64,000 nucleotides of DNA, taken from Escherichia phage NHEP10. Position numbers and translations under genes: made by a program. Numbering within the stretch: position 1 is the stretch's first letter; each line of letters begins with the position of its first letter. The notes under the pieces were generated by a model, which was not told the origin of the DNA, searched no databases, and worked only from the letters and a program-made list of their open reading frames with translations. The stretch lies in sequence record PQ511148.1; one strand, given 5' to 3'. Of the stretch, positions 1,505 to 2,299 are shown in pieces.

Positions 1505-1702
1505 TTAGCAAGAATAACTAGATGATACCCAGCCTTGAACAGTAATGCTATTATTAGATAATGAGATTGCGTTCTGGAGATTCAGACCTGCGTTATCTTC
1601 AATCCATAATGTAACTTCTTCGCGTTCTTCTGTTGCAATTTGGAACAGGTTTTCTAGAGCAGCTACTGCGGTACGTACAGCACAATCTAATTCACGAGAC
1701 AT
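1505..1702 (-). CDS. small protein with C-terminal GWVSSSYSC motif (paralogue family member A)
   Basis: ORF track; stop TAA overlaps TAAGGA upstream of next gene; C-terminus shared with two neighbours. Confidence 0.6.
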   Translation of the reverse strand: MSRELDCAVRTAVAALENLFQIATEEREEVTLWIEDNAGLNLQNAISLSNNSITVQGWVSSSYSC

Positions 1703-1711
1703 AGGGTTTCC

Positions 1712-1984
1712 TTAGCAAGTGTGAGAAGATGCAACCCAACCGCCATCTTCAAGGCTCAGGTTGTAGTCGTATTGGTAAACGTCGGCCCATTCAGCATAGC
1801 CGTTTTTTGTACAACGTTCAAGATCGGCTTTAAGATGTCCTGGTGAATGATATGTTCCACCCATACCATAAGCTGGATACAAGTCGAATGTTGTGTTTTG
1901 TTTATTAGCAATTTCTTTGGCGGCCTCAATAGCTGCATAGATTTTTGCTACGGCTTCAGCCAGTTCGGTTTGTTCTTTAGACAT
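1712..1984 (-). CDS. small protein with C-terminal GGWVASSHTC motif (paralogue family member B)
   Basis: ORF track; helical N-terminus and Y..G..Y motif shared with 1994-2299. Confidence 0.65.
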   Translation of the reverse strand: MSKEQTELAEAVAKIYAAIEAAKEIANKQNTTFDLYPAYGMGGTYHSPGHLKADLERCTKNGYAEWADVYQYDYNLSLEDGGWVASSHTC

Positions 1985-1993
1985 AATGATTCC

Positions 1994-2299
1994 TTAGCAC
2001 AACGCAGAAGACGAAACCCAAGCACCTTCAGTAATAACGTAACCATTACCTTCACGCTTAACATCGCCACCATTATTTTCTATTTCATTTTTCATCCACT
2101 GGGATACGATTTCACCCTTAGGATAATAAGTACGACCGCTACCATAATCACCTACAGAAAATGATACGGCATATTGGTCTGCGATCTTTGTTGCTTCTTC
2201 TTCGATACGTTCAGCTTGATTCAGAAGTTTGTAAATTGCATCTGAAGCGGATTTGGCATCATTAAACTCTGGTACTTTAATTTCAATAATCTTACTCAT
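1994..2299 (-). CDS. small protein with C-terminal GAWVSSSALC motif (paralogue family member C)
   Basis: ORF track; paralogous to 1712-1984. Confidence 0.65.
   Translation of the reverse strand: MSKIIEIKVPEFNDAKSASDAIYKLLNQAERIEEEATKIADQYAVSFSVGDYGSGRTYYPKGEIVSQWMKNEIENNGGDVKREGNGYVITEGAWVSSSALC

What the first reader, a model, noticed from the sequence alone, without database searches (positions are those of the whole stretch)
1505..2299. Three tandem small paralogues with a conserved C-terminal GWVxSSxxC motif
ORFs 1505-1702, 1712-1984 and 1994-2299 end in VQGWVSSSYSC, GGWVASSHTC and GAWVSSSALC, each with a terminal Cys. The two longer ones also share an N-terminal helix and a Y..G..Y motif. 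Codons differ synonymously (gca/tcg/tca; tct/agt), so the constraint is on protein, not just the overlapping TAAGGA ribosome-binding site. I do not recognise the family. A conserved extreme C-terminus on divergent bodies suggests a shared targeting, modification or degradation tag.
Basis: seen in the sequence. Interest (0 to 1): 0.65.

Follow-up and report, generated by a model that had tools for sequence, protein, structure and literature searches.

The report
Cys-tailed small proteins with partner enzyme
Three adjacent small phage genes end in the same eight-residue tail (Trp-x-Ser-Ser-Ser-x-x-Cys), and in distant phages genes with this tail almost always lie just upstream of one uncharacterised enzyme-like gene, which points to an undescribed two-part phage system.

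Summary
The window is an RB69-like T-even phage. On the minus strand, ORFs 1994-2299, 1712-1984 and 1505-1702 end in WVSSSALC, WVASSHTC and WVSSSYSC.

Of 143 cluster representatives at 50% identity, 131 end exactly in Cys, with W at -7 and S at -4 and -3 nearly invariant. Extra internal copies of the motif are about tenfold over-represented.

The tail also sits on unrelated bodies. ORF1 shares only the tail with ORF2 and ORF3.

No Pfam family, solved structure or paper matches these proteins.

The new result is strict gene linkage. One to six tail-bearing genes lie directly upstream, on the same strand, of a DUF7277+DUF7275 gene (window 218-1174). This held in 33 of 33 testable loci found through the small protein, and in 17 of 19 enzyme clusters at 50% identity. 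The control was 1 of 1269 ORFs downstream.

The partner carries invariant G-S...D-x-D residues like a Pol-beta nucleotidyltransferase. That assignment rests on the motif only.

My best reading is that the tail is the shared handle or acceptor site for this enzyme. Function remains untested. The suggested link to the e.3/e.4 membrane genes is not supported.

The parts
1994..2299 (-). ORF3, 101 aa. Small acidic protein (net charge -5) of the phrog_899 type. It ends in GAWVSSSALC, and its ATG overlaps the e.3 stop codon (ATGA at 2296-2299).
   Evidence: (phrog_899, 1.8e-22)
1712..1984 (-). ORF2, 90 aa. Small acidic protein (net charge -6) of the phrog_899 type, with YGMGGTY in a hairpin loop. It ends in GGWVASSHTC.
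   Evidence: (2.2e-18). AlphaFold2 model: pLDDT 84.5, pTM 0.71, order helix-strand-strand-(two helices)-strand-short helix.
1505..1702 (-). ORF1, 65 aa, phrog_4882. Its body differs from ORF2/ORF3 and lacks the YGxGG loop, but the tail is the same (QGWVSSSYSC). Orthologues keep W-x-S-S-S-x-x-C invariant.
   Evidence: (1.7e-36)
1997..2020 (-). Tail codons of ORF3 (WVSSSALC)
1715..1738 (-). Tail codons of ORF2 (WVASSHTC)
1508..1531 (-). Tail codons of ORF1 (WVSSSYSC)
218..1174 (-). 318-aa DUF7277+DUF7275 protein (RB69ORF134c). This is the conserved downstream partner of the tail-bearing genes. G6-S7, D25 and D27 are invariant, and the C-terminal domain has many conserved charged residues. It is a putative nucleotidyltransferase-fold enzyme, judged from the motif only.
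   Evidence: (DUF7275 9e-78, DUF7277 1e-27)
1203..1454 (-). 83-aa ORF (RB69ORF135c, phrog_3723) between ORF1 and the enzyme gene. It is lineage-specific, found in only 14 of 104 module loci, and is probably not a core part.
1471..1499 (-). Site resembling a T4 early promoter (TTTACA-17-TATAGT). It starts right after the ORF1 stop codon and lies upstream of the 83-aa ORF and the enzyme gene.
   Evidence: consensus match only

Best explanation
ORF3, ORF2 and ORF1 are members of a large, phage-restricted set of small acidic proteins. What defines the set is an extreme C-terminal tail, W-x-[S/A]-S-S-x-x-C-COOH, with a short form W-x-x-S-S-C. These genes form a two-part cassette with the gene that follows them, a DUF7277+DUF7275 protein. 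I propose that the tail is the common element through which every paralogue engages that enzyme. It could act as the acceptor site for a covalent modification of its Ser hydroxyls or terminal Cys (for example nucleotidylylation), or as the docking peptide of interchangeable specificity subunits. The divergent bodies and acidic linkers would then bind different host targets early in infection.

Shown here: the motif and its conservation, its repetition inside some proteins, its presence on unrelated bodies, and the near-obligate, polar gene linkage with the enzyme gene.

Inferred: physical contact between the two parts, the nucleotidyltransferase chemistry, covalent modification of the tail, early expression, and any host target.
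For: Tail conservation. Of 143 family representatives at 50% identity, 131 end in Cys. Among those 131, W is at -7 in 130, S at -4 in 130 and S at -3 in 128.

Portability. The tail sits on bodies that do not otherwise align. Internal copies of W-x-[SDNTGE]-S number 89 against 8.5 +/- 3.0 in shuffles. The full internal motif W..S..C occurs 17 times against 0.17 expected.

Linkage, starting from the small protein. A DNA pattern for YGMGGTY found 73 viral loci. Of these, 43 hold a family member, and 33 of those have the enzyme gene downstream on the same strand within 1.2 kb. The other 10 have at most 815 nt of DNA downstream, so they cannot be tested. None of the 30 loci without a family member has the enzyme.

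Linkage, starting from the enzyme. 71 to 72 of 80 loci have a tail protein within 3 kb upstream, and five of the apparent exceptions carry divergent tails. After dereplication, 17 of 19 enzyme clusters at 50% identity and 31 of 33 at 70% have a partner.

Polarity control. The tail pattern hits 235 of 1517 ORFs upstream on the same strand, 1 of 1269 downstream and 8 of 6907 on the opposite strand.

Only the pair is conserved. The other neighbours differ between lineages. T4 lacks the whole block between e.3 and e.2.

Enzyme features. G-S and D-x-D are invariant in 33 diverse N-terminal domains. The best hhalign alignment to E. coli Cca puts these residues in register with Cca's catalytic GG...DxD, although the score is not significant. 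Two Acinetobacter phage records independently call the protein 'putative nucleotidyltransferase'.
Against: There is no direct evidence of interaction or modification. The nucleotidyltransferase assignment is not statistically supported. HMM profiles of the whole enzyme and of its N-terminal domain find nothing relevant in the PDB. No other Pfam, PADLOC or NCBIfam family matches. hhalign to Cca gives 1% probability. The single-sequence AlphaFold model is unusable, with pLDDT 35.7.

In the ORF2 model the Trp of the tail lies in the third strand of the sheet (E81-85, block pLDDT 77), so part of the motif's conservation may be structural.

I looked for covariation between the tails and the enzyme's C-T-S-I-T-S-G-W motif and found none that was clean.

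One enzyme lineage (L126/127/131/149) and L106 have no tail gene upstream.

A promoter-like site separates ORF1 from the enzyme gene in this window, so the genes need not be strictly co-translated.
Confidence: 0.55

Rival explanations
1. The small proteins are independent host-takeover or anti-defence inhibitors. On this view the tail is purely structural: the last beta-strand plus a C-terminal cap, with the Cys perhaps binding a metal or forming a disulfide on oligomerisation. The adjacency to the DUF7275 gene would then reflect co-inheritance of an early-gene cassette with no biochemical coupling.
For: The AlphaFold model places the Trp in strand E81-85 of a compact alpha/beta domain with good confidence. 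The proteins are small and strongly acidic (family mean net charge -8.4), which is typical of phage early inhibitors. Paralogue number varies from 1 to 6.
Against: The same tail occurs on bodies that do not align. It is repeated inside presumably flexible acidic linkers far above chance. Linkage with the enzyme survives divergence to 35-45% enzyme identity while all other neighbours change.
Confidence: 0.2
2. The cassette is a toxin-antitoxin-like or regulatory pair. The DUF7277+DUF7275 enzyme would act on a host substrate such as tRNA or another RNA. The upstream small proteins would be its cognate inhibitors or pseudo-substrates, and the tail would plug the active site. MenA-MenT, AbiEi-AbiEii and MntA-HepT pairs work this way (comparison from my own knowledge).
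Confidence: 0.12
3. The tail undergoes chemistry like that of a peptide natural-product precursor or a carrier protein. One version has the Ser at -3 dehydrated and attacked by the terminal Cys, giving a lanthionine/AviCys-type S-x-x-C ring. Another has the terminal Cys carrying a persulfide or thioester, as on the flexible C-terminal arms of TusE/DsrC, ThiS or LysW (comparisons from my own knowledge).
For: S(-3)-x-x-C-COOH has the spacing of the AviCys ring in epidermin-type peptides (established knowledge, not tested here). Several precursor-like paralogues sit beside one enzyme.
Against: No LanB/LanM/LanD, radical-SAM, E1-like or ATP-grasp gene lies in any of the neighbourhoods examined. 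The short tails W-x-x-S-S-C change the Ser-Cys spacing. The proteins are predicted to fold into a domain that includes the tail strand.
Confidence: 0.06
4. The tail is a degradation or targeting signal read by host machinery, such as a C-terminal degron for a host protease. This is one of the first reader's options.
For: The only support is the position of the motif at the free C-terminus, which 131 of 143 representatives keep exactly.
Against: The tail does not resemble known E. coli C-terminal degrons such as ssrA-type LAA (established knowledge). The hosts span Enterobacteria, Pseudomonas, Xanthomonas, Acinetobacter and Aeromonas, yet the tail is invariant while a phage-encoded partner co-varies in presence. 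Internal copies would not work as C-terminal degrons.
Confidence: 0.05

Closest known systems
PHROG families phrog_899 and phrog_4882 (unknown function), with Pfam DUF7277/DUF7275 for the partner
   Same: These are the families the window's proteins belong to by HMM.
   Different: They are only sequence clusters. None has an assigned function, motif description, solved structure or paper.
Two-gene nucleotidyltransferase modules MntA-HepT, MenA-MenT and AbiEi-AbiEii
   Same: A small or medium partner gene lies next to a gene of about 300 aa with a Pol-beta-type G[GS]...DxD N-terminus and a helical C-terminal domain. In MntA-HepT the nucleotidyltransferase AMPylates its protein partner (established knowledge).
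   Different: No profile match to these families was found. The cassette is phage-restricted. It has 1-6 partners with a conserved C-terminal tail, which none of these systems has.
GlnD-PII and GlnE-glutamine synthetase (reversible protein nucleotidylylation)
   Same: In these systems a nucleotidyltransferase-fold enzyme modifies a hydroxyl on a small partner protein, at a Gly-rich hairpin loop with Tyr in PII. ORF2 and ORF3 have a YGxGGTY hairpin.
   Different: hhalign to E. coli GlnE finds nothing. ORF1-type proteins lack the Tyr loop but keep the tail, so the tail and not the loop is the shared element.
Carrier proteins with a functional extreme C-terminus: ThiS/MoaD (GG-COOH), LysW (EDWGE-COOH), TusE/DsrC (Cys on a C-terminal arm)
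   Same: These are small, often acidic proteins whose invariant extreme C-terminus is the site of covalent chemistry by a dedicated partner enzyme (established knowledge).
   Different: The motif differs. There is no E1-like, ATP-grasp or sulfurtransferase partner, and no fold match. Multiple paralogues per locus are also unlike these carriers.
Lanthipeptide/AviCys precursor peptides (for example EpiA)
   Same: They share a Ser-x-x-Cys-COOH terminus and several precursor-like genes per locus (established knowledge).
   Different: The proteins here are folded 65-100-aa domains. No lanthipeptide enzymes are nearby. The Ser-Cys spacing varies.
Small acidic phage early inhibitors and nucleotide sponges (Ocr, Arn, Acb2, Tad1, Tad2)
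   Same: They are similar in size and acidity, and in lying in the non-essential region of large virulent phages that T-even phages use for early genes.
   Different: No sequence or fold similarity to any solved structure, and these proteins are in the PDB. None of them has a conserved C-terminal tail or a dedicated enzyme partner.

Membership tests
Tail-bearing small-protein superfamily (phrog_899 type) | HMM match to the family profile | tested here: met
   ORF2 scores 2.2e-18 and ORF3 1.8e-22 against phrog_899. Against the profile of 137 members they score 1.4e-20 and 6.2e-24.
Tail-bearing small-protein superfamily (phrog_899 type) | ORF1 homologous over its whole length | tested here: not met
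   ORF1 belongs to phrog_4882. hhalign aligns only the last 13 residues (87% probability), and the HMM gives E 0.05. ORF1 shares the tail, not the body.
Tail-bearing small-protein superfamily | W-x-[S/A]-S-S-x-x-C ending exactly at the C-terminus | tested here: met
   All three ORFs end this way. The family consensus comes from 131 of 143 representatives.
Tail protein + DUF7277/DUF7275 cassette | DUF7277+DUF7275 gene within about 1.5 kb downstream on the same strand | tested here: met
   The window gene 218-1174 matches DUF7275 at 9e-78 and DUF7277 at 1e-27. It lies 331 nt downstream of ORF1.
Pol-beta nucleotidyltransferase superfamily (partner enzyme) | hG[GS], then 9-20 residues, then [DE]h[DE]h, plus a third carboxylate on a later strand | tested here: inconclusive
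   G6, S7, D25 and D27 are invariant in 33 diverse sequences, and an E-x-E strand is mostly conserved. No significant profile match exists. hhalign to Cca is in register but gives only 1% probability.
Pol-beta nucleotidyltransferase superfamily (partner enzyme) | alpha/beta nucleotidyltransferase fold | not testable with these tools
The single-sequence model has pLDDT 35.7.
AbiEii/MenT (DUF1814) and other defence or toxin-antitoxin nucleotidyltransferases | Profile match to the family models | tested here: not met
   PADLOC gives 0 families for the enzyme. A Pfam scan of 20 homologues finds only DUF7275 and DUF7277.
YefM/Phd/RelB antitoxins | Fold similarity at a convincing level | tested here: not met
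Known phage anti-defence sponges and inhibitors with solved structures (Acb2, Tad1, Tad2, Ocr, Arn and others) | Sequence or fold similarity to a solved member | tested here: not met
   sequence and profile; fold
Lanthipeptide/AviCys precursors | Neighbouring dehydratase, cyclase or Cys-decarboxylase genes, and a short unstructured core peptide | tested here: not met
   No such Pfam families appear in any neighbourhood. The tail strand is part of a confidently folded domain.
RraB (regulator of RNase E), the name one source gave to family member P0210 | Match to the RraB Pfam model | tested here: not met
   None of 137 members matches it at E of 0.01 or better.

The most novel reading that the evidence does not exclude
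The tail would be the acceptor site of a phage-encoded nucleotidyl- or phospho-transferase. Phages would then decorate a whole family of small acidic proteins, on Ser-Ser next to a stacking Trp or on the terminal Cys, with nucleotides or related groups. That would make a previously unknown class of protein-nucleotide conjugates. They could be used early in infection as decoys or inhibitors of host nucleic-acid- or nucleotide-sensing defences, with each paralogue aimed at a different target.
Probability: 0.2. Interest if true: 0.9.

Novelty: categorically new. Interest (0 to 1): 0.75.

Why it matters
The enzyme gene occurs in at least 733 deposited phage genomes. These include T-even relatives of E. 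coli, Klebsiella, Enterobacter, Acinetobacter and Aeromonas, phAPEC8/rV5-like phages, Pseudomonas and Stenotrophomonas myoviruses, and jumbo phages. Many of these are candidates for phage therapy. Yet both components are annotated as hypothetical, and I found no paper on them.

A nearly invariant C-terminal peptide, shared by otherwise unrelated proteins and strictly linked to one enzyme, is the signature of a dedicated tag-and-enzyme system. Working it out could reveal a new protein modification or a new modular way for phages to aim one enzyme at several host targets. It would also assign a function to two DUFs and two PHROGs.

The hypothesis is directly testable by mass spectrometry of the small proteins with and without the enzyme.

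Tried and rejected
1. Family libraries. Pfam, NCBIfam and PADLOC give nothing for the three ORFs. None of 137 family members matches a Pfam family meaningfully. The weak Peptidase_S78_2 and E217_Gp32 hits of ORF3 are below cut-off and I rejected them.

3. The search for related loci with the 137-sequence alignment failed because no stretch was conserved enough. I replaced it with a DNA pattern for YGMGGTY.

4. Enzyme fold. The PDB phmmer and profile searches were empty. The Pfam rescans found only the two DUFs. hhalign to E. coli Cca and GlnE was not significant. An attempt to fetch AbiE from plasmid pNP40 failed because the record is not held.

5. Disulfide or mirror-motif idea. The enzyme motif C-T-S-I-T-S-G-W is the tail read backwards. 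Enzymes lacking that Cys (L012, L067) still have Cys-tailed partners. The W-to-R change occurs both in a lineage without tail genes and in one with them. This gives no support.

6. Linkage with the e.3/e.4 membrane genes is rejected.

7. The 'sulfurtransferase' label on e.4 in two records has no support from any library. The 'RraB' label on one family member is also unsupported.

8. Literature. Six searches returned nothing relevant, on ORF names, PHROG and DUF identifiers, motif strings, and topical terms.

Full report
**Context**

The window is a T-even-type phage of the RB69 group (Mosigvirus). The first 4.3 kb are 99.8% identical to Escherichia phage NHEP36 and 97% identical to RB69. All genes in this stretch run on the minus strand.

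In the RB69 record the three ORFs are RB69ORF136c (ORF1), 137c (ORF2) and 138c+139c (ORF3, split there). They lie between e.3 and a run of hypothetical genes that ends at e.2. T4 has e.3 directly abutting e.2, so the whole block is an insertion relative to T4.

**The observation**

The last eight codons are:
- ORF3: TGG GTT TCG TCT TCT GCG TTG TGC
- ORF2: TGG GTT GCA TCT TCT CAC ACT TGC
- ORF1: TGG GTA TCA TCT AGT TAT TCT TGC

Each is followed by TAA. TAAGGA doubles as the ribosome-binding site for ORF2 and ORF1, but no such site follows ORF1. The TCT/AGT serine codons show that the protein, not the DNA, is what is conserved.

Only these 3 of 909 stop-to-stop ORFs in the window carry the tail. 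ORF2 and ORF3 are homologous (E 9e-6; both phrog_899). ORF1 (phrog_4882) shares only the tail with them. All three proteins are acidic, with net charge -5 to -6.

**The family**

An exhaustive profile search found 151 representatives at 50% identity with E of 1e-3 or better. Nearly all are 75-120 aa and end at the last profile position.

Of 143 short members, 131 end exactly in Cys. Among those 131, W is at -7 in 130, S at -4 in 130 and S at -3 in 128. Position -5 is S (94) or A (28).

The body has three elements: an N-terminal helix, a stretch reading 'AE-IADE-G--F-F', and a loop with Y-G-M-G-G-T-Y. A variable acidic linker, often rich in Trp, follows.

A further search gave 207 proteins. All are hypothetical and none has a Pfam domain. 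No member matches a Pfam family, and no profile or sequence match exists in the PDB.

**The tail behaves like a portable linear motif**

Related T4-like phages carry up to five tandem tail-bearing genes. These phages are JS98, PM2, a Klebsiella phage and an Enterobacter phage.

Two body types seen there are absent from this window. One is a 74-aa type with an internal W-x-N-S-S-C and a terminal W-x-P-S-S-C. The other is a 78-aa type ending WYSSSMQNC.

ORF1 orthologues keep W-x-S-S-S-x-x-C invariant while the rest of the protein varies. Profile-profile comparison aligns these types to the main family only at the tail.

Within family proteins, excluding the terminal eight residues, W-x-[SDNTGE]-S occurs 89 times against 8.5 +/- 3.0 in shuffles. 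The full W..S..C occurs 17 times against 0.17 expected.

**The new finding: a conserved partner**

I looked up three very distant family members: a 98-kb Pseudomonas phage, a 370-kb jumbo-phage contig and a 128-kb metagenomic phage. Each lies just upstream of a DUF7277+DUF7275 gene of about 300-344 aa. The window has the same arrangement: ORF 218-1174 matches DUF7275 at 9e-78 and DUF7277 at 1e-27.

I tested the linkage in both directions.

*Starting from the small protein.* A DNA pattern encoding YGMGGTY found 73 viral loci.
- 43 hold a family member.
- 33 of those have the DUF gene downstream on the same strand, within 1.2 kb.
- The other 10 have at most 815 nt of sequence downstream, so they cannot be tested.
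- None of the 30 loci that matched the pattern by chance holds the DUF gene.

*Starting from the enzyme.* Of 80 loci, 71 to 72 have a tail protein within 3 kb upstream.
- Five apparent exceptions carry divergent tails...SWVQSSC...NWDSSTC...DWDSSSANC...WYNSSESC and ...EWESSESSEC.
- The true exceptions are one lineage (L126/127/131/149) and L106.

*After dereplication.* 17 of 19 enzyme clusters at 50% identity, and 31 of 33 at 70%, have a partner.

*Polarity control.* A relaxed tail pattern hits 235 of 1517 ORFs upstream on the same strand, 1 of 1269 downstream and 8 of 6907 on the opposite strand.

Everything else in the neighbourhood differs between lineages:
- ribonucleotide reductase and glutaredoxin in the Pseudomonas phage;
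- PNKP and Rnl1 in the jumbo phage;
- DprA-like, methyltransferase and Sir2 genes in phAPEC8;
- helicase and ADP-ribosyltransferase genes in Acinetobacter phage Lazarus.

e.3 and e.4 homologues accompany only 9 and 5 of 104 module loci.

The enzyme occurs in 733 phage records. It is almost absent from 185,579 bacterial and archaeal species genomes, with 8 hits, all MAG contigs. Distant, shorter homologues in KVP40 and in Gordonia phage Miskis have no tail genes upstream.

**What the partner might be**

In 20 full-length and 33 N-terminal sequences, G6, S7, D25 and D27 are invariant. A strand reading h-E-h-E-h follows. This is the hG[GS]...DxD...E pattern of Pol-beta-type nucleotidyltransferases, which I recognise from general knowledge.

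The C-terminal DUF7275 domain has invariant K125, H128, R129, K139, T140, R165, H194, D195, H198, E240, E241, E248, R249, K270, R281 and E286. It also has a near-invariant K-V-C-T-S-I-T-S-G-W-F-R-E.

The fold assignment is not statistically supported:
- profile searches of the PDB are empty;
- Pfam finds only the two DUFs;
- hhalign to E. coli Cca aligns the G-S/D-x-D residues in register with Cca's catalytic motif, but at 1% probability;
- hhalign to GlnE finds nothing;
- the single-sequence AlphaFold model is unusable.

Two Acinetobacter phage records call the protein 'putative nucleotidyltransferase'. That is an annotator's opinion, not a test.

**Mechanism**

The data show a near-invariant C-terminal peptide carried by otherwise unrelated small acidic proteins, sometimes repeated within them. 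These genes are encoded with strict polarity next to one enzyme-like gene.

The simplest reading is that the tail is the common handle or acceptor site for that enzyme. I give this 0.55. The bodies would provide diversity, for example by binding different host targets. Covalent modification of the Ser-Ser or Cys, such as nucleotidylylation, is plausible but inferred.

The rivals are:
- independent inhibitors with a structural tail (0.2);
- a toxin-antitoxin-like inhibitor and enzyme pair (0.12);
- tail chemistry like that of a peptide natural-product precursor or a carrier protein (0.06);
- a host-read degron (0.05).

I looked for covariation between the tails and the enzyme's mirror-image C-T-S-I-T-S-G-W motif. 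I found none that was clean.

**Expression layout**

This rests on consensus matches only. ORF3's ATG overlaps the e.3 stop codon (ATGA). ORF2 and ORF1 follow with ribosome-binding sites 7-8 nt upstream of their start codons. A T4-early-type promoter-like site (TTTACA-17-TATAGT) begins right after ORF1's stop and precedes the 83-aa ORF and the enzyme gene.

**Novelty**

Six literature searches found nothing on these ORFs, PHROGs, DUFs or motifs. Every membership test against a characterised family failed or was inconclusive.

I therefore rate the cassette as not belonging to any known kind of system. The caveat is that, if the partner proves to be a protein nucleotidyltransferase, it would be a distant functional analogue of the GlnD-PII or MntA-HepT pairs.

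Noticed in passing
window 169-208 and 1465-1504 (minus strand): There is a nearly identical element of about 40 nt, AAC[A/T]GTTTACA...ATAGGGCTATGTTATAGTAGTCCT, at two places. Each contains a site resembling a T4 early promoter (TTTACA-17-TATAGT with TG). One follows the enzyme gene and the other follows ORF1.
   Followed up: partly
window 1203-1454 (minus strand): An 83-aa ORF (RB69ORF135c, phrog_3723) with a conserved 'RFEDAHC' stretch sits between ORF1 and the enzyme gene. It is present in JS98 and Enterobacter phage relatives, but in only 14 of 104 module loci.
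   Followed up: partly
L001 (RB69 record AY303349) 4992-5298: In the RB69 reference the ORF3 orthologue is split into ORF138c and ORF139c, and its tail reads WVSSPALC. This is a frameshifted pseudogene or a sequencing error. Truncated ORF2 copies also occur (P0017, P0018).
   Followed up: no
window 218-1174, residues about 270-282 of the enzyme: The near-invariant enzyme motif K-V-C-T-S-I-T-S-G-W-F-R-E is the tail W-x-S-S-S-x-x-C read backwards, with the same W-to-C spacing and a Ser/Thr-rich middle. I found no clean covariation with the tails.
   Followed up: partly
L178 (T4, NC_000866) 3653-4320: In T4, e.3 directly abuts e.2. The block ORF3-ORF2-ORF1-83aa-enzyme plus two further ORFs is therefore an insertion/deletion cassette between e.3 and e.2 among T-even phages.
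   Followed up: yes
L011 3974-6629 and L045 6081-9089: Some metagenomic phages carry five tail-bearing paralogues upstream of the enzyme gene and a sixth just downstream of it. This is the only case of a downstream member that I saw.
   Followed up: partly
L176 (Acinetobacter phage Lazarus) 2530-2706: A 58-aa paralogue ends in ...NWSNSES with no terminal Cys, next to two Cys-tailed paralogues. It may be a decayed or variant member.
   Followed up: no
L177 (KVP40.0037) and L174 (Gordonia phage Miskis gp14): These are shorter (253-263 aa), distant homologues of the enzyme. They keep the N-terminal G-S...D-x-D residues but lack the C-T-S-I-T-S-G-W motif, and they have no tail-bearing genes upstream.
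   Followed up: partly
window 1505-1702, ORF1 residue 7: ORF1-type proteins have a second invariant Cys near the N-terminus (MSRELDC...) in addition to the terminal Cys. An intramolecular disulfide or a metal site is possible.
   Followed up: no
L002 (phage vB_Eco_F27) 3133-3528, equivalent to window 2634-3059: The e.4 membrane protein is annotated 'sulfurtransferase' in two deposited genomes. No Pfam, NCBIfam or PADLOC model supports this.
   Followed up: partly
window 6389-6545 and 3624-3641: tRNA-Arg(TCT) and tRNA-Met genes lie on the minus strand at 6389-6545. A strong hairpin of 7 base pairs, GC-rich and terminator-like, lies between e.6 and e.5 at 3624-3641.
   Followed up: no
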